From Podarcis muralis (lineage: Eukaryota), in assembly GCF_964188315.1 (NCBI RefSeq), contig NC_135656.1:31248001-31312000 (forward strand): DNA of 64,000 bases, written 5' to 3'. This document shows positions 17,301 through 23,300 of the stretch, in pieces. Position 1 is the first letter of the stretch. Every line of letters starts with the position of its first letter. Made by a program: the position numbers.

Positions 17301-20300
17301 AGCACAAACTCCCACTAATGTACCACCCCTCGCTTTCTGACGTTGGCTCTTCGCCACAACCAGCACTTCACCAACATCCCAGTTTCCCGATCATTCCCAT
17401 GCTGCTCCTGTACTCTTACTTTCAGTGTGTTCCTTAGGAAGATACACATCAAGCTTCTCTCCCTCGCCCAACCCGTAGGGCACATTCAGCAGAGTTTGGG
17501 TGCCAATCTGGGCACGGCGGGTACCTGCAGAGCAGAGGAAGGCACAGAGAGATGGAAGTCCACAGCTTGCCTGGCCACATCTGGGCTGCCCTACCACACT
17601 CCAGAGGAGTTTTCAGATTGTCGGTGCCTGTCCTCGTTCAAAACTTCGGAAAACTGGGGTAGGCTTTGCCACCTCTATACAGGCCCATTCTTAAGGAAAT
17701 TATCCCTGAGTGTTCACTGGAAGGACAGATCCTGAAGCTGAGACTCCAATACTTTGGCCACCTCATGAGAAGAGAAGACTCCCTGGAAAAGACCCTGATG
17801 TTGGGAAAGATGGAGGGCACAAGGAGAAGGGGACGACAGAGGACAAGATGGTTGGACAGTGTTCTCGAAGCTATCAGCATGAGTTTGACCAAACTGTGGG
17901 AGGCAGTGGAAGACAGGAGTGCCTGGTGTGCTCTGGTCCATGGGGTCACGAAGAGTCGGACACAACTAAATGACTAAACAACAACAACAAAGCAGACATT
18001 CTGGGGGAATTTTCATTGCTCCTCACCACTATGAGATGAACACGACGAAACGACTAAACAACAATACAGTCCCAAGGGGAAGAAACCTTCCTCGCAAGTT
18101 CCAAAGGAGTGCCTTCTTTCCAATCCCTCTTCAGAACCTCCTGTGAGATTTTGCCCTCTCTTGCACTGGAGGTGAGCTGGCCCACTAGAACTTCTGTGGC
18201 CAGAGTGCATCCTCAGGGTTGCTTAACTGCTAAAGCATAACTGATTCATGTTCAGTGACCCTGGGTATGCAGTCTTGCTTAAGGATAAACATGCCCTTCT
18301 TGCTGGATCAGTACCAGGTCCACCAACTCTAGGGCTCTTTGCAAGAATGCCAACAACCAGCTGGCCCTGGGAGATCTGTTGGAAGTTAGTGGCCCCTTGG
18401 TGATCTGCCCGCTCCCATCCCACTTATTGCCAGGTAGTGGACTGCCCAGGGACCCTTTACCTTCGCTCATTGCCTGTACGTGAGCCTCAATCACAGCATC
18501 TGCATCCAGCCGGGGAGACCACCTGCTAGGGGAGTACTGCTTCTCCAGCTCCTGCAGAGAGAGGAAGCAAGGCACCTTGCACAGCCACAGTGGCGGCCCT
18601 CTTTTCACTCAGAGTAAGGTGACTAGGGCGCTGAGTAGAAACACAGGCAGACTGGGTGCCAAACGAAGCATTGCTAAGTAAGTAGCATGCAGCTATGCAT
18701 TTCTTACTTAATAACAGGCACGCCATGGAAGAAGAAGAAGGTTTCTCAAACGAACCTTCATTATTAGAAAAAGTGTTATTACAAAACAAAACTAAGGTAA
18801 TATCAAAAATGTATGATACATTATTGGAGTGGGAGGTCAAAGACGAACAGGTCAAGGAGGTAATGATATTGGGAAAACCATTAACTTAACAGCATGGGAA
18901 GAATTATGGAGAAAGAACAGGAAATTTACAGCCTGTGAAGTAATGGGGGGAAATCTAATCAAGATGTTTTATAGATGGTACTTAACACCTACCAAAATAG
19001 CTAAAATGTATAAGACAAAAACAAATCTGTGTTGGAGGTGTGGTAAAACAGAGGGGACACTTATACATGTTTGATGGACCTGTGAAAAAAATCAAAAGCT
19101 TCTGGAACATAGTATATGACAATCTTAAAAAAATGTTTAAGTATAACTTTATAAAAAATACAGAAGCTTCTCTACTAGGGATAACGGACGCAGGTATAGC
19201 AAGAGAAGATCAGAAAATATTCCTCTGTGCTACAGGAGCGGCAAGGATCCTAATTGCTAAAAACTGGAAAAAAGAAATTGTGCTAACAAAAATGGAATGG
19301 CAAGACAAACTGTTAGAGTATATTGAACTGGCTAGATTAACAGAGGCAATTAGAGATCAAACTAGACAAGAATTTCAAAAAGCATGGGGAAAATGCAGAG
19401 AATACTTTACAAAACAGTGCCCTAAAATTCATACCTGGACTTGTTTTCATCAATGTCTGCAGGAGACTTTGTGGATATTTAAGTTATAATTAGGAAAATC
19501 TTAATGATTATTCATAAAGGAAACCGCTTATAAGAAGTAAATAAGGATGCCAGAAACAGGATAAAGGAAGTCTTTTATTTGGTTGTTTGTATTGTTGTAA
19601 ATTATGCTTGTTGTTTGTTATGTTTGTGTCTGAAGGGGGTGGATTTCTGTGTTGGGGGGGTTGTGTTATGTTGTAAATAAAATTTCCAATAAAAAAATAT
19701 ATTTTTTTAAAAAAGGAAGAAGAGTTTGGATTTGATATCCCGCTTTATCACTACCCAAAGGAGTCTCAAAGCAGCTAACCATCTCCTTTCCCTTCCTCCC
19801 TCACAACAAACAGTCTGTGAGGTGAGTGGGGCTGAGAGACTTCAGAGAAGTGTGACTGGCCCAAGGTCACCCAGCAGCTGCATGTGGAGGAGCGGAGAAC
19901 CGAACCCAGTTCACCAGATTACGAGACTACCGCTCTTAACCACTACACCACACTGGCTTTCATGGAGCAGGGATCCCTGTCAGGAAGGCAGTGCATGGGG
20001 ACAGGGGAGAACTTACCAAATGAACCAACCCCACCCTGCACAGCTAAGAAGAAACCTTAGGGGTAAAAGTTCCCATTGATGTTGTGCATATTGAACACAA
20101 CCCTGCAAAGATTTGGGTATTGCTGAGACCACCCTGAAAAATGCAGCTGCTCGATTTAGACATATCTCTGCTTTCAGGATAATGTATGTTTATCTTTCGA
20201 ACGTTGCCCAACAGTTCTTCCTCCCACATTTCCCCTTGTGTATATCATTTCCATTTCCACATATCTGATGTACAAAAGCAATATATCTGCTAGTCCTCTA

Positions 20301-23300
20301 TGCAAGGGTGACTAATGATTAGTATTCTGGGTGTTGTTTGACTCTCATCAGCTCCGGCCAGCATAGCCAACAGTCAGAGATGATGAGTATCCATCCACAT
20401 CTTGAGGGGCCAGGGGTTTGCCATCTTCATCTTAAAGGAGACTTTGTCAGCATCAGTGTAACACAGTTTCTAGAACAGGCATAGGCAAACTCGGCCCTCC
20501 AGATGTTTTGGGACTACAACTCCCATCATCCCTAGCTAATAGGACCAGTGGTCAAGGATGATGGGAGTTGTAGTCCCAAAACATCTGGAGGGCCGAGTTT
20601 GCCTATGCCTGTTCTAGAAGTTCTTTTTCTCGAGGACGTCTCAAATCTTTTCCTGGCTGTAACCACCAAACTCACACAAAACAAGATCTTTCAAAATCTC
20701 TCACACACAGAGGTAATACCATTCCTTCCACCCCCTCCTTTACCTCCTTGGTCATTTCCTGCCACTTTCCCATGTCACCGGCTCAGATGTGGCCTATGCT
20801 GTATCTTCTTACATCCAAGTTTTCTGTGCTGCAGAGCAACTAGTTAGAAGAGCCAGCCATGTGACCCAATTCAGCCTCTGGGTACAAAGTGTAGAACAGA
20901 TCAGGTGTTCCTCCTTGGCCACTGGTTGCTCCATGAGCTGGGGCAGGGTGGGGGGAGAGAAAACCCTGACATAGGGAACTATGCTCTCTGCAAATAAACA
21001 AATCCGTGCTAGGATTTAGGTGGAGGTCAGTCGTATTCGCTCTCAGCACTGACTCCAGAACAGCTATCCCGAGGCAACTGATATCGTCCAGTTACAAGAC
21101 ACAAGCTCAAATCCGTGCACAAAATCAGGGGAAGCTATTTTTGTAGCCAGGTAATTCCCCCCCATCCCAGCCAAAAACAAAAACAAACAAACAAACTCTT
21201 TTTGAGAAGTGATCTTTAAAACTTGCTCACACTGGGGAAACCCAGCCAGATAGGTGGGATATAATAATTTATTATTATTATTATACTCAGAAAAAGATTT
21301 ACCCAATGTAGCAATTCTTGTACTTTCCAATGCACTTAACAAACAACAACCATTGATGCAGACTCTCAGCTCAGTTCGAGGAATACTATTTTTGGATCTG
21401 TGTCCTGGCTGCCAAAGTATGTAAGATCAAAGCGACCTCAGAAATGCTTTAAGCAGCATAACCCACTTAGAAAGGAACAGAACTCCTGAATAGCTCCGGT
21501 TTCCATAGTTTCTCATTGCCTCTTTTTTAGTTATGACGGCGGTGTGCTGCGAAACAACTCTGCAATCCCTCCCTTCTCCTCGGATTCAAATGCACTTTTC
21601 TCCCGCTGTTGTAAAAATGCAGAGTGAGTCTGAGAAAGTACCTCCTCACACATATTTGCATAATGCGGCTCCTTTGAAAATGGAGTGAATTTTGCTCCTG
21701 CAAATGGGGGTGGTGGTGGTGAGGTCAGGTTGTGCAGACATACCAGCGGAAGTGTCTGAATGGGTCTTCTGGTGGGTCCTGGCAGCCCCAACTTCACTGC
21801 CACCCTACCCGGCCTATGTCAAGAGGGCTGATCTACAGTGCTGCTGCATCATGCTGGCCACTCCTAGGCATTAAGTATGCAACAAAATGTTGCTGCATGA
21901 AAAATACTCTGAGTCGAGTGGATTTCATGCTCTTTATTCAGCTCATAGTGGTGAGGAGCAATGAAAATTCCCCCAGAATGTCTGCTTTGTTGTTGTTGTT
22001 TAGTCATTTAGTCGTGTCCGACTCTTCGTGACCCCATGGACCAGAGCACGCCAGGCACTCCTGTCTTCCACTGCCTCCTGCAGTTTAGTCAAACTCATGC
22101 TGATAGCTTCGAGAACACTATCCAACCATCTTGTCCTCTGTCGTCCCCTTCTCCTTGTGCCCTCCATCTTTCCCAACATCAGGGTCTTTTCCAGGGAGTC
22201 TTCTCTTCTCATGAGGTGGCCAAAGTATTGGAGTCTCAGCTTCAGGATCTGTCCTTCCAGTGAGCACTCAGGGCTGATTTCCTTCAGAATGGATAGGTTT
22301 GATCTTCTTGCAGTCCATGGGACTCTCAAGAGTCTCCTCCAGCACCATAATTCAAAAGCATCCATTCTTCGTCAATCAGCCTTCTTTATGGTCCAGCTCT
22401 CACTTCCATACATCACTACTGGGAAAACCATAGCTTTAACTATACAGACCTTTATCTGCTTTATATACATTATTTACACAATGGGCCCCATGTGATTGGC
22501 TAATTCTGGGATTCACCTGTAGGCCAATCTGGTTGCGGATTCACTTCCACCTGGAGCTGGATTGGGTGGCTCCTGTGGACCAATCAGACTGCTGCATTCT
22601 GAATCCTATTGTTCTAGGACCAATCAGACTGCTGCCTTTTGGATCCTATTCAACTCAGTACATAACACTGCATGGTGTTCCACTCAGCCACCCCTTCTCC
22701 CAGGATACTCCATTCCATCCCCGCAAGCTTTCCTACATTTCTCCTCCCATCAGTTAGCATTCCATACCCACCAAGCATTTTCAATCCTCACTGGGTTGGT
22801 TTTGGTGTCCATCCACCCTTTTCGGGACTTCTGCAAACCTTGTGTCTTCCTCCAAGCCTGCCGATACCTTCCTCATGTTGTGGATGGTGCAGTTTTGGCT
22901 GCATCAAGACAAACAGTCAGGAATGAATGAACTATTAGTATTGGATGTCTACCTGCCTGCTACAGGGATGAGAAATCTGCCCCCCTTCCAATGTTGCTGG
23001 TCTGCAACTTCTTTCAGCCCCAGCTACCATGGCACTGATGAGGGTGATGTGATTGTCGTCTGGTTACATCCAGAGGGCCACAGATTCCCTGTCCCTAACC
23101 TGCTAAATCCAGGTATTTAAAAGAACAAAGTGTCTGGTTTAATTTCTCCACAAATAGCTAAGGCAGTTTGATGGGGCTTTGGTTCTGTGAAACTATGGCA
23201 TAAAACCTCTCCTATCCTGGGTCCCCCAATTCTCGGCTGTTTTGCTGCCACTATTCATCGCTCTGTTCTTATTCCTTCCTTCTTCAGATCTTAGCTAAAA

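What the first reader, a model, noticed from the sequence alone, without database searches (positions are those of the whole stretch)
17687..22290. Inverted ~350-bp repeats bracket a frame-neutral AFMID exon pair: predicted dsRNA, exon skipping and a stop-free 147-nt circRNA
Seen: B lies in the intron upstream of exon 21642-21697 and A in the intron downstream of exon 18461-18551, in opposite orientation. The two exons total 56+91 = 147 nt and both outer introns are phase 1. Skipping both keeps the frame (MLCE-S-TRRAQ..). Back-splicing gives GAA G|GA GCA, a 49-codon circle with no stop and two AUGs. Established: intronic reverse-complementary matches promote back-splicing, exon skipping and ADAR editing (the inverted-Alu paradigm). 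Inference: BovB may play this role in squamates. The pair could also invert the two exons by recombination and inactivate AFMID.
Basis: partly seen in the sequence, partly recalled or inferred. Interest (0 to 1): 0.65.

Follow-up and report, generated by a model that had tools for sequence, protein, structure and literature searches.

The report
Inverted Bov-B repeats in lizard AFMID
Two young copies of a common lizard jumping gene lie in opposite orientation around the first coding exons of the wall-lizard AFMID gene; the repeat is real, but the exon model behind the predicted stop-free circular RNA is not supported, so this is an ordinary, untested case of a known arrangement.

Summary
The inverted repeat is real. 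Arms 17685-18040 and 21937-22292 match at 345 of 356 bases with no gaps. Both arms are 5'-truncated 3' ends of the Podarcis muralis Bov-B (RTE-clade) LINE (PMC13295347).

The gene is AFMID (kynurenine formamidase) on the minus strand. Its coding exons are identical to P. muralis XP_028571367.2.

It is absent from all 14 squamate AFMID protein models I saw and has no protein match. 297 of 4450 AG..GT segments in that interval meet the same criteria.

The exons actually bracketed are therefore about 85 + 91 = 176 nt. That circle has stops in every frame and a 46-codon ORF, not a 147-nt endless one.

Arm B is probably intronic, because a CpG-island promoter shared with TK1 lies at about 25.6 kb. 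The 356-bp duplex is very stable (-715 kcal/mol). Back-splicing, exon skipping and editing remain plausible but untested by-products of a known mechanism.

Two Bov-B copies per 64 kb at about 3% divergence is the genome-wide expectation. Interest is low.

The parts
17685..18040 (+). Arm A of the inverted repeat. It is a Bov-B LINE 3' end in LINE-sense on the + strand, so it is antisense in the AFMID transcript.
   Evidence: 345/356 identical to arm B; tblastn of P0053, residues 903-998, maps to 17687-17974 at 92% identity.
17688..18063 (+). The whole copy-A insertion: ORF2 C-terminus, stop codon, (CAA)4 tail, a 51-nt extension and a second short Bov-B-type tail. It is flanked by target-site duplications ATACAGGCCCA (17677-17687) and ATACAGTCCCA (18064-18074).
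   Evidence: The duplication starts with A, follows a T, and has TTT at 17665-17667. This is the Tn-TA signature described for reptilian Bov-B in PMC13295347, section 3.2.
21937..22292 (-). Arm B of the inverted repeat. It is a Bov-B 3' end in LINE-sense on the - strand, so it is sense in the AFMID transcript.
21937..22458 (-). The whole copy B. It is a longer 5'-truncated Bov-B fragment that ends after the same 51-nt extension and has no second tail. Only a 6-nt candidate duplication (ATAAAG) was found.
   Evidence: P0053 residues 849-998 map to 22452-22003 at 93% identity..
17990..18040 (+). The 51-nt extension after the (CAA)n tail. Arm B carries the same extension at 21937-21987. It is not part of the canonical Bov-B end.
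   Evidence: The 40-mer from it occurs only at these two places in the window. Canonical P. muralis copies show the duplication right after the tail (supplement Fig S6).
18461..18551 (-). AFMID 91-nt coding exon (ELEKQYSPSRW...AMSE).
   Evidence: identical to XP_028571367.2 over this exon. Splice sites are shown.
20744..20828 (-). AFMID start-codon exon. The CDS part 20744-20773 (MGKWQEMTKE) is verified by homology. The acceptor at 20829-20830 (TCTAAC..CTGCAG|CAC), and therefore the 85-nt length, are inferred from sequence only.
17420..17524 (-). AFMID 105-nt coding exon (G)TRRAQIGTQ...HTE.
25546..25560 (-). 3' end of the putative non-coding AFMID exon 1 (..GCATGCTCTGCGAAA|GTGAGG). It lies in a CpG-island-like promoter, 260 nt from the TK1 ATG on the other strand. 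The transcription start was not determined.
   Evidence: ATTGG boxes at 25634 and 25696.
21642..21697 (-). It is an AG..GT open segment with no supporting evidence.
25806..25871 (+). TK1 first coding exon (MNCLMMPGVQPGSPLKARGQIQ). Further TK-domain exons lie at 26442 and from 27187 to 30515.
20468..20619 (.). A palindromic MITE-like element inside the loop, in the intron between the 85-nt and 91-nt exons. The stem is 64 bp and perfect.
   Evidence: -137.4 kcal/mol, z = -22.

Best explanation
WHAT IT IS. The feature is two insertions of the Podarcis muralis Bov-B (RTE-clade) LINE. Both are 5'-truncated 3' ends from the young cohort of that family (K2P distance 0.032, roughly 12 My at 0.0013 per site per My). 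Both carry the same non-canonical 51-nt 3' extension, so they probably descend from one source lineage. They landed in opposite orientation in the 5' part of AFMID (kynurenine formamidase, minus strand).

WHERE THE COPIES SIT. Copy B lies 1108 nt upstream of the start-codon exon (20744-20828). That is most likely intron 1, downstream of a short non-coding exon at the promoter shared with TK1 (about 25.55-25.6 kb). Copy A lies 420 nt downstream of the 91-nt exon (18461-18551).

HOW IT WOULD WORK. Shown: if both copies are in one pre-mRNA, they can form a 356-bp, 97% paired duplex that loops out these two exons. Inferred from the established inverted-repeat mechanism: the likely consequences are by-products. 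These are low-level back-splicing of the 91-nt exon donor to the 85-nt exon acceptor, giving a circle of about 176 nt that contains the AFMID AUG, with a finite 46-codon ORF. Some skipping of the looped exons and A-to-I editing of the arms are also expected. Nothing indicates selection for any of this.
For: REPEAT. 345/356 identical, no gaps.

LINE IDENTITY. The arms translate to residues 903-998 and 849-998 of a 998-aa P. muralis ORF2 (P0053) that has Exo_endo_phos and RVT_1 domains. They carry a (CAA)4 tail, and copy A has a Tn-TA-type target-site duplication. Both features are described for reptilian Bov-B in PMC13295347 (sections 3.2 and 3.3). The 22-mer GTGCCTGGCGTGCTCTGGTCCA, listed in that paper's supplement inside a P. 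muralis Bov-B copy at positions 3351-3372 of the printed stretch, is present in arm B.

GENE MODEL. All coding exons map to XP_028571367.2. M[G/E]KWQEMTKE starts 6 of the 11 lacertid models and 2 of the 3 Varanus/Hemicordylus models.

PROMOTER. There is a CpG-island-like window at 25501-26000. The TK1 ATG is at 25806 on the + strand. The donor AAA|GTGAGG lies at 25546/25545. Three of the 11 lacertid models start at MSEGTR, so they lack the start-codon exon but keep the 91-nt exon. This fits an upstream first exon.

DUPLEX. -715.2 kcal/mol. Net of self-folding it is -536, against -21 +/- 6 for 20 shuffled partners. 346 of 356 positions are paired between the arms. There is no other inter-region inverted match at E<=1e-3 inside 12000-25650.

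MECHANISM. Young species-specific transposon dimers in flanking introns accompany circRNA loci, and the authors interpret the circRNAs as by-products (PMC8516420, abstract and passages). Human AFMID has an exonic circRNA listed on arrays (PMC7271966 and PMC8183921, one table passage each).
Against: No transcript data of any kind were available. The AFMID transcription start is not shown. If transcription starts just upstream of 20773, arm B is not in the pre-mRNA, and a first exon cannot be back-spliced.

The acceptor at 20829-20830 is inferred from sequence only.

Copy B lacks a clear target-site duplication and a terminal (CAA)n tail, so its origin as an independent insertion is less secure than that of copy A.

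Arm B is 1.1 kb from the acceptor and the loop is 3.9 kb.

A very stable local hairpin lies inside the loop (20468-20619). Its effect on folding is unknown.

Many genes with inverted repeats give no measurable circRNA.
Confidence: 0.6

Rival explanations
1. Exon 21642-21697 is a used internal coding exon. The loop holds a frame-neutral 56+91-nt pair, and back-splicing gives a 147-nt circle with an endless 49-codon ORF.
For: The AG and GT are in place, with a C-rich tract before the acceptor. The frame is open. One frame of the circle has no stops and carries two AUGs. Arm B is only 239 nt from this acceptor. An exon lying in a 5' UTR would not be visible in protein models.
Against: The peptide is in none of the 14 squamate AFMID models. 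The ORF found no protein at E<=10 (weak evidence). 297 of 4450 segments pass the same test by chance. The donor GTACTT lacks the G at +5. There is no DNA similarity to the true start-codon exon: 61 of 300 shuffles scored as high. The true start-codon exon lies between the two exons and would have to be skipped. If the 25546 exon, the 56-nt exon and the 91-nt exon were joined, they would give a 305-aa ORF, and no model shows that.
Confidence: 0.07
2. An inert pair. AFMID transcription starts just upstream of the ATG at 20773. Arm B then lies in promoter or intergenic DNA, the two arms never share an RNA, and nothing follows.
For: The canonical protein starts in the 20744-20773 exon. I could not see any mRNA. 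The exon at 25546 could be a promoter-upstream transcript of TK1. The 3 models that start at MSEGTR could arise from other starts, as in Zootoca isoform X1, which reads through from just upstream of the 91-nt exon.
Against: There is no CpG-island-like window at 20.8-21.5 kb, but there is one at 25501-26000. A consensus branch point plus acceptor (TCTAAC..CTGCAG) lies 55 nt upstream of the ATG. TK1 sits head-to-head 260 nt from a good donor.
Confidence: 0.2
3. The arms are not two insertions. They arose by an inverted segmental duplication or gene conversion, or they are an assembly artefact.
For: The homology has sharp ends. The arms share 51 nt beyond the canonical LINE tail. Copy B has no clear target-site duplication.
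Against: Copy A has its own 11-nt target-site duplication with the family's insertion signature, and it has a second tail that B lacks. B extends about 165 nt further 5' as LINE sequence. The homology therefore ends exactly where one copy or the other ends. 3% divergence equals the family mean for young copies. The flanks are unique and the window has no N.
Confidence: 0.05
4. The pair acts mainly at the DNA level. Recombination between the arms inverts 18041-21936 and disrupts AFMID as a segregating allele.
For: There are 356 bp at 97% identity in inverted orientation, 3.9 kb apart. The longest perfect run is 143 bp.
Against: There is no population or long-read data. The homology is short for efficient ectopic recombination (my own knowledge, not tested). 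The window shows the intact gene order with all exons identical to the reference protein.
Confidence: 0.03

Closest known systems
Reverse-complementary transposon pairs in flanking introns that promote back-splicing (inverted Alu, B1 and ID dimers; PMC8516420, with the primary papers it cites)
   Same: Two copies of one young, lineage-specific retroelement lie in opposite orientation on either side of internal 5' exons. The predicted dimer is very stable. The start-codon exon is inside the loop.
   Different: The element is a LINE 3' fragment (Bov-B), not a SINE, and the host is a squamate. No back-splice junction has been observed. Whether the upstream arm is intronic depends on a transcription start that has not been shown.
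Podarcis muralis Bov-B LINE family (PMC13295347)
   Same: The arms show ORF2 C-terminal homology and a (CAA)n tail. Copy A has an 11-nt target-site duplication starting with A after T, with TTT about 10 nt upstream. Both copies are 5'-truncated, and their ~3% divergence is typical of the young cohort.
   Different: Both copies carry 51 extra nt after the tail. Copy A then has a second short Bov-B-type tail before its duplication. Copy B ends without a terminal tail.
Human AFMID exonic circRNA (hsa_circRNA_102207 / hsa_circ_0045881, listed in array tables of PMC7271966 and PMC8183921)
   Same: The parent gene is the same, so AFMID can yield exonic circles in another vertebrate.
   Different: I saw only one table row in each paper, and the exon content is not given there. 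Any lizard circle would be an independent, transposon-driven event, not a conserved one.
circRNAs with endless (rolling-circle) ORFs
   Different: The circle built from supported exons is 176 nt, which is not a multiple of 3, and it has stops in all frames.

Membership tests
Bov-B (RTE-clade) LINE | Sequence is homologous to the single long ORF that carries an AP-endonuclease domain and a reverse transcriptase domain | tested here: met
   The arms match residues 903-998 and 849-998 of P0053 at 92-93% identity. P0053 is 998 aa, with Exo_endo_phos at 61-291 and RVT_1 at 562-794.
Bov-B (RTE-clade) LINE | Microsatellite-like (CAA)n 3' end in reptilian Bov-B (PMC13295347, section 3.3) | tested here: met
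   ACAACAACAACA follows directly after the ORF2 stop codon in both arms. However, 51 extra nt follow it.
Bov-B (RTE-clade) LINE | Tn-TA insertion signature: the target-site duplication starts with A, is preceded by T, and has TTT about 10 nt upstream | tested here: met
   Copy A has ATACAGGCCCA / ATACAGTCCCA, a T at 17676 and TTT at 17665-17667. For copy B only a 6-nt ATAAAG was found, so it is inconclusive there.
Bov-B (RTE-clade) LINE | Match to a named Bov-B reference sequence (Repbase or Dfam consensus) | tested here: inconclusive
   No repeat library was available. The only link is indirect: an exact 22-mer of arm B is listed inside a P. muralis Bov-B copy in the paper's supplement. The resemblance to the cattle Bov-B 3' end is recalled, not tested.
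Intron-pairing-driven exonic circRNA locus | Long reverse-complementary sequences exist | tested here: met
   356 nt at 97% identity, -715 kcal/mol.
Intron-pairing-driven exonic circRNA locus | Both arms lie in introns of one pre-mRNA and flank the circularised exons | tested here: inconclusive
   Arm A lies between verified coding exons. Arm B is intronic only if transcription starts at the CpG promoter shared with TK1 at about 25.6 kb. No transcript data were available.
Intron-pairing-driven exonic circRNA locus | The looped exons have a usable upstream acceptor and downstream donor | tested here: inconclusive
   The donor AAG|GTAAAG after 18461 is verified by the protein map. The acceptor before 20828 is inferred from sequence only.
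Intron-pairing-driven exonic circRNA locus | A back-splice junction is observed and is RNase R-resistant | not testable with these tools
   No RNA-seq was available.
Endless-ORF (rolling-circle translated) circRNA | Circle length is a multiple of 3, with an AUG-containing frame free of stops | tested here: not met
   This is met only for the unsupported 56+91-nt circle. The 85+91-nt circle is 176 nt, has 9 stops per three turns, and its longest AUG ORF is 46 codons.
AFMID / kynurenine formamidase gene | Exons encode the orthologous protein | tested here: met
   In the tblastn of XP_028571367.2, the coding part of every exon block is identical to the protein. Mismatches fall only in intron read-through at the ends of the matches. 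The precomputed Pfam domains are PF07859 and PF20434.

The most novel reading that the evidence does not exclude
Bov-B LINE fragments, and the Sauria SINEs that share their 3' end, would be the squamate counterpart of inverted Alus. At this locus the pair would loop out the AFMID start-codon exon. That would give an AUG-containing circRNA. By double skipping it would also give an mRNA in which the upstream AUG of exon 1 falls in frame (MLCES-TRRAQ...) and encodes an enzyme lacking its first 41 residues. The result would be a Podarcis-specific, transposon-made switch of kynurenine formamidase dosage.
Probability: 0.1. Interest if true: 0.45.

Novelty: new member of a known kind. Interest (0 to 1): 0.2.

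Why it matters
If RNA data confirmed it, this would be a clean, datable example outside mammals of a young LINE pair creating a circRNA and alternative 5' splicing in a housekeeping metabolic gene. The pair is about 12 My old by the rate used in PMC13295347. That would extend to squamates the view that circRNAs are by-products of recent transposon insertion (PMC8516420).

I found no squamate data on this. Searches for BovB + circRNA, Bov-B + circular RNA, circRNA + squamate and circRNA + lizard gave only a general remark in a Darevskia genome paper (PMC9498476, passages).

As it stands the locus is an ordinary arrangement. Two Bov-B copies per 64 kb at 3% divergence is the genomic expectation, and the attractive feature, a stop-free translatable circle, rests on a mis-predicted exon.

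Tried and rejected
I sent the unspliced ORF around it to the same tool instead.

2. I asked whether the 56-nt exon is an old duplicate of the start-codon exon. Local alignment scored 11, and 61 of 300 shuffles scored as high. Rejected.

3. A weak peptide similarity at 25042-25092 to the 91-nt exon (tblastn E = 0.34) could have been a relic exon. 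At the DNA level 23 of 300 shuffles reached the score. I treat it as chance.

4. Pfam on the arm ORFs, the three ORFs of the LINE-like fragment at 18686-19486, the two ORFs around the 56-nt exon and the ORF at 24958-25329 gave 0 families.

5. Rfam on 12000-26500 at gathering thresholds gave 0 matches.

6. I looked for the 51-nt extension in the Bov-B paper's supplement. There were 0 occurrences, but the sequences there are wrapped or cut, so this says little.

7. I looked for other Bov-B or Sauria-SINE pieces in the window that could compete for pairing. None was found by tblastn with P0053 or by blastn with extended copy B.

The phage, plasmid and E. coli collections are irrelevant. The presence or absence of the arms in other lacertids therefore stayed unchecked.

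10. Complex prediction, structure prediction and fold search were not used, because no claim here needs them.

Full report
**1. The observation**

The inverted repeat exists as described. Arms 17685-18040 and 21937-22292 are 356 nt long, 3896 nt apart and 97% complementary. A gapped alignment with 400-nt flanks gives 345/356 identities and no gaps. The homology stops sharply at both ends. It is the longest and best of the 14 inverted pairs of 100 nt or more in the whole window.

Inside the putative AFMID transcription unit (12000-25650) it is the only inter-region inverted match at E<=1e-3. The two other matches are self-palindromes, at 20468-20619 and 19690-19709. The window has no N.

I take the window for Podarcis muralis, not human, for the reasons given in section 3.

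**2. What the arms are**

Arm A read on the + strand, and arm B read on the - strand, translate to the C-terminus of a LINE ORF2. A protein search with the 123-aa ORF of copy B was saturated: 8000 of the 8000 scored candidates had E<=0.001, and the best 120 were listed. The named hits were P. muralis 'reverse transcriptase domain-containing protein' or 'ribonuclease H' entries at 88-96% identity, plus one Zootoca entry. The rest were unnamed and I did not use them.

One named hit, P0053, is 998 aa and stands for 178 member sequences. It has Exo_endo_phos at 61-291 and RVT_1 at 562-794. This is the single-ORF endonuclease-plus-RT layout of RTE-type LINEs. Mapping P0053 back to the window by tblastn gives exactly two hits:

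- Residues 903-998 at 17687-17974 (copy A, 92% identity).
- Residues 849-998 at 22452-22003 (copy B, 93% identity).

There are no other fragments of this LINE in the 64 kb.

A 2026 paper on reptilian Bov-B (PMC13295347) supplies the family's properties. I read its Results, its figures-and-tables section, some passages, and part 237 of its supplement. It reports:

- 52,041 Bov-B hits in the 1511-Mb P. muralis genome.
- A mean pairwise divergence of 3.0% among copies longer than 3 kb.
- A (CAA)n microsatellite-like 3' end.
- Target-site duplications that start with A, follow a T, and have three T about 10 nt upstream (the 'Tn-TA' signature).

Both arms have ACAACAACAACA right after the ORF2 stop codon. 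Copy A is flanked by ATACAGGCCCA (17677-17687) and ATACAGTCCCA (18064-18074). A T lies at 17676 and TTT at 17665-17667. A 22-mer listed in that paper's supplement inside a P. muralis Bov-B copy, at positions 3351-3372 of the printed stretch, occurs exactly in arm B.

No Repbase or Dfam consensus was available for a direct test. My recollection of the cattle Bov-B 3' end is only a recollection.

**3. The gene**

An unspliced ORF around 18461-18551 found kynurenine formamidase of Podarcis muralis (XP_028571367.2, P0001, 292 aa), of Varanus komodoensis and of Hemicordylus capensis. Mapping P0001 on the window by tblastn places the coding blocks on the minus strand:

| Block | Coordinates |
|---|---|
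| 1 | 20773-20744 |
| 2 | 18551-18461 |
| 3 | 17524-17420 |
| 4 | 17250-17206 |
| 5 | 17090-17001 |
| 6 | about 16918-16847 |
| 7 | 16656 to about 16558 |
| 8 | about 16410-16333 |
| 9 | 14247-14113 |
| 10 | 13630-13523 |
| 11 | 12625-12584 |

The coding part of every block is identical to P0001. The P. raffonei and P. lilfordi proteins differ at several residues. Searches were done exon by exon, with unspliced ORFs, or by mapping the reference protein. The search with a joined spliced model was left out.

**4.

It appears in none of the 11 members of the P0001 cluster and in none of the three Varanus/Hemicordylus models. The 11 lacertid models begin as follows:

- 6 begin M[G/E]KWQEMTKE.
- 3 begin MSEGTR.
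- 1 (Zootoca isoform X1) reads in from the intron just upstream of the 91-nt exon.
- 1 begins MLNVPYG.

The 95-aa unspliced ORF containing the 56-nt exon found no protein at E<=10 among 86 word-sharing candidates. The tool itself calls this weak evidence.

The exon is also not remarkable statistically. Between 18552 and 25545 on the minus strand there are 4450 AG..GT segments of 30-200 nt. 297 of them have the required phase and no stop. 20 of those also have a YAG acceptor with at least 9 of 12 upstream pyrimidines. None of the 20, this one included, has a GTRAG donor. The 56-nt exon shows no DNA similarity to the true start-codon exon.

**5. Is arm B in the pre-mRNA?**

I cannot see transcripts, so this is inference. 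Upstream of the ATG at 20773 there is a consensus branch point and acceptor (TCTAACTAGTTGCTCTGCAG|CAC). This would make an 85-nt exon, 20744-20828.

At 25501-26000 there is a CpG-island-like window. It holds two ATTGG boxes, at 25634 and 25696. On the + strand TK1 begins at 25806 (MNCLMMPGVQPGSPLKARGQIQ), continues at 26442 (VIFGPMFSGK), and has Pfam TK matches from 27187 to 30515. On the minus strand, 260 nt from the TK1 ATG, the sequence ..GCATGCTCTGCGAAA|GTGAGG offers a good donor at 25546.

A head-to-head TK1/AFMID promoter is what I recall for human, but I did not test that. BIRC5-like (BIR domain, 8486-8662) and claudin-like (1771-2382) exons lie downstream of AFMID on the same strand. 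This completes a familiar gene order.

The 255-aa isoforms that start at MSEGTR are what one expects if an upstream exon is spliced directly to the 91-nt exon. They occur in P. muralis, P. raffonei and Zootoca. In that splice the upstream AUG opens a short ORF that stops after 12 codons.

I put about 0.7-0.75 on arm B being intronic in at least some AFMID pre-mRNAs.

**6. What the loop really holds, and what follows**

The geometry is as follows:

| Feature | Length |
|---|---|
| Arm B to the 20828 acceptor | 1108 nt |
| Arm A to the 18461 donor | 420 nt |
| Intron from the 25546 exon to the 85-nt exon | 4717 nt |
| Intron from the 85-nt exon to the 91-nt exon | 2192 nt |
| Intron from the 91-nt exon to the 105-nt exon | 936 nt |

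As RNA the arms co-fold at -715.2 kcal/mol, with 346 of 356 positions paired between them. Net of self-folding this is -536 kcal/mol, against -21 +/- 6 for 20 shuffled partners.

The candidate circles compare as follows:

| Circle | Length | Stops | Longest AUG ORF |
|---|---|---|---|
| 85 + 91 nt (supported exons) | 176 nt | 9 stops per three turns | 46 codons (MGKWQ...AMSE + AQKTWM) |
| 56 + 85 + 91 nt (all three) | 232 nt | 10 stops per three turns | 76 codons |

If both looped exons were skipped, the AUG in the 25546 exon falls in frame with the 105-nt exon (MLCES-TRRAQ...). That would encode a protein lacking residues 1-41. This is bookkeeping, not evidence of use.

**7. Origin of the two copies**

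The copies differ at 11 sites: 8 transitions and 3 transversions, 2 of them in CpG context. The K2P distance is 0.032. At the 0.0013 per site per My used in PMC13295347 this is about 12 My per copy, assuming equal ages and no gene conversion.

Copy A is 5'-truncated at ORF2 residue 903 and has its own target-site duplication. Copy B is truncated at residue 849. The shared homology ends where A begins and where B ends. This pattern fits two insertions rather than a duplicated segment.

One thing is unexplained. Both copies carry the same 51 nt after the (CAA)4 tail, with one mismatch. Copy A then has a second short Bov-B-type end (CACGACGAAACGACTAAACAACA) before its duplication. Copy B stops after the 51 nt, with only a 6-nt candidate duplication.

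In the paper's supplement, the duplications of full-length P. muralis copies are listed about 200 nt before the end of each printed stretch. That is where the (CAA)n tail should end if the flanks are about 200 nt, but the 3' ends themselves are cut from the text I could read. If so, the 51 nt are not canonical. A common source element with 3' read-through, or a variant subfamily, would explain it. Two copies cannot decide between these.

**8. Comparison with what is known, and verdict**

The arrangement works like the inverted-Alu, B1 or ID dimers that flank mammalian circRNA exons. The eLife study of five mammals (PMC8516420: abstract and passages read) ties circRNA loci to young, species-specific transposon dimers and argues that the circles are mostly by-products. 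Human AFMID is listed as the parent of an exonic circRNA on arrays (one table row each in PMC7271966 and PMC8183921).

For squamates I found nothing beyond a general remark in a Darevskia genome paper (PMC9498476, passages). The searches were BovB + circRNA, Bov-B + circular RNA, circRNA + squamate and circRNA + lizard.

Membership in 'circRNA locus driven by intron pairing' cannot be granted. The defining back-splice junction is untestable here, and two structural features are only inferred: the intronic position of arm B, and the acceptor of the start-codon exon.

Statistically the pair is what the genome gives. About 2.2 Bov-B hits are expected per 64 kb, young copies differ by about 3%, and half of all pairs are inverted.

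The finding is a correct repeat observation attached to a mis-predicted exon model. What remains is an ordinary but reasonable candidate for transposon-driven back-splicing. It could be checked cheaply with existing lizard RNA-seq.

Noticed in passing
window 17990-18065 and 21937-21987: Both Bov-B copies carry the same 51 nt after the canonical (CAA)n tail. Copy A then has a second short Bov-B-type tail before its target-site duplication. This could be 3' transduction from one source element, or an undescribed Bov-B variant or non-autonomous derivative.
   Followed up: partly
window 20468-20619 (related copies at 6114-6260 and 54806-54952): A palindromic MITE-like element with a perfect 64-bp stem (-137.4 kcal/mol, z = -22) lies in the AFMID intron 125 nt downstream of the start-codon exon. 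It has no Rfam match. It is a strong local dsRNA in the same pre-mRNA.
   Followed up: partly
window 25546-25558 (- strand) with 17420-17524: The AUG in the putative non-coding exon 1 is in frame with the 105-nt exon if both looped exons are skipped (MLCES-TRRAQ). It opens only short upstream ORFs when exon 1 is spliced to the 85-nt or 91-nt exon.
   Followed up: partly
window 25806-25873 and 26420-26470 (+ strand): TK1 exon 1 ends right after ..GQIQ, and the next bases are GCACGT. Exon 2 starts at VIFGPMFSGK after a TATAG acceptor. Intron 1 of TK1 therefore looks like a GC-AG intron.
   Followed up: no
window 1771-2382, 8486-8662, 12584-20773, 25806-30515: The gene order is a claudin-like gene (Pfam Claudin_2), a BIR-domain gene (survivin-like), AFMID (all three on the - strand), then TK1 (+ strand, head-to-head with AFMID). 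This matches the order I recall for human 17q25.
   Followed up: partly
window 13261-13523, 14444-14706, 15848-16110 (partner at 56724-56986): Three direct copies of a ~263-nt repeat (64-88% identical to the reference copy) lie in downstream AFMID introns, all in one orientation. Their only inverted partner lies outside the gene, so they add no competing intron pairing.
   Followed up: no
window 18686-19700 (+ strand) and 19711-19967: A LINE-like ORF remnant ending in an A-rich tail, followed by a SINE-like repeat that is 91% complementary to 40686-40942, fills much of the loop between the arms. Pfam found nothing in its three ORFs. My 'L1-like' impression is from memory only.
   Followed up: no
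window 25042-25092 (- strand): A peptide RWS..LDAD..HVQ resembles the 91-nt exon product (tblastn E = 0.34). At the DNA level 23 of 300 shuffles reach the score, so it is probably chance.
   Followed up: yes
proteins P0001 and P0014: The two versions of the P. muralis RefSeq protein (XP_028571367.1 and .2) differ at four residues (G2E, R44C, A108V, K126R). The window encodes the .2 version.
   Followed up: no
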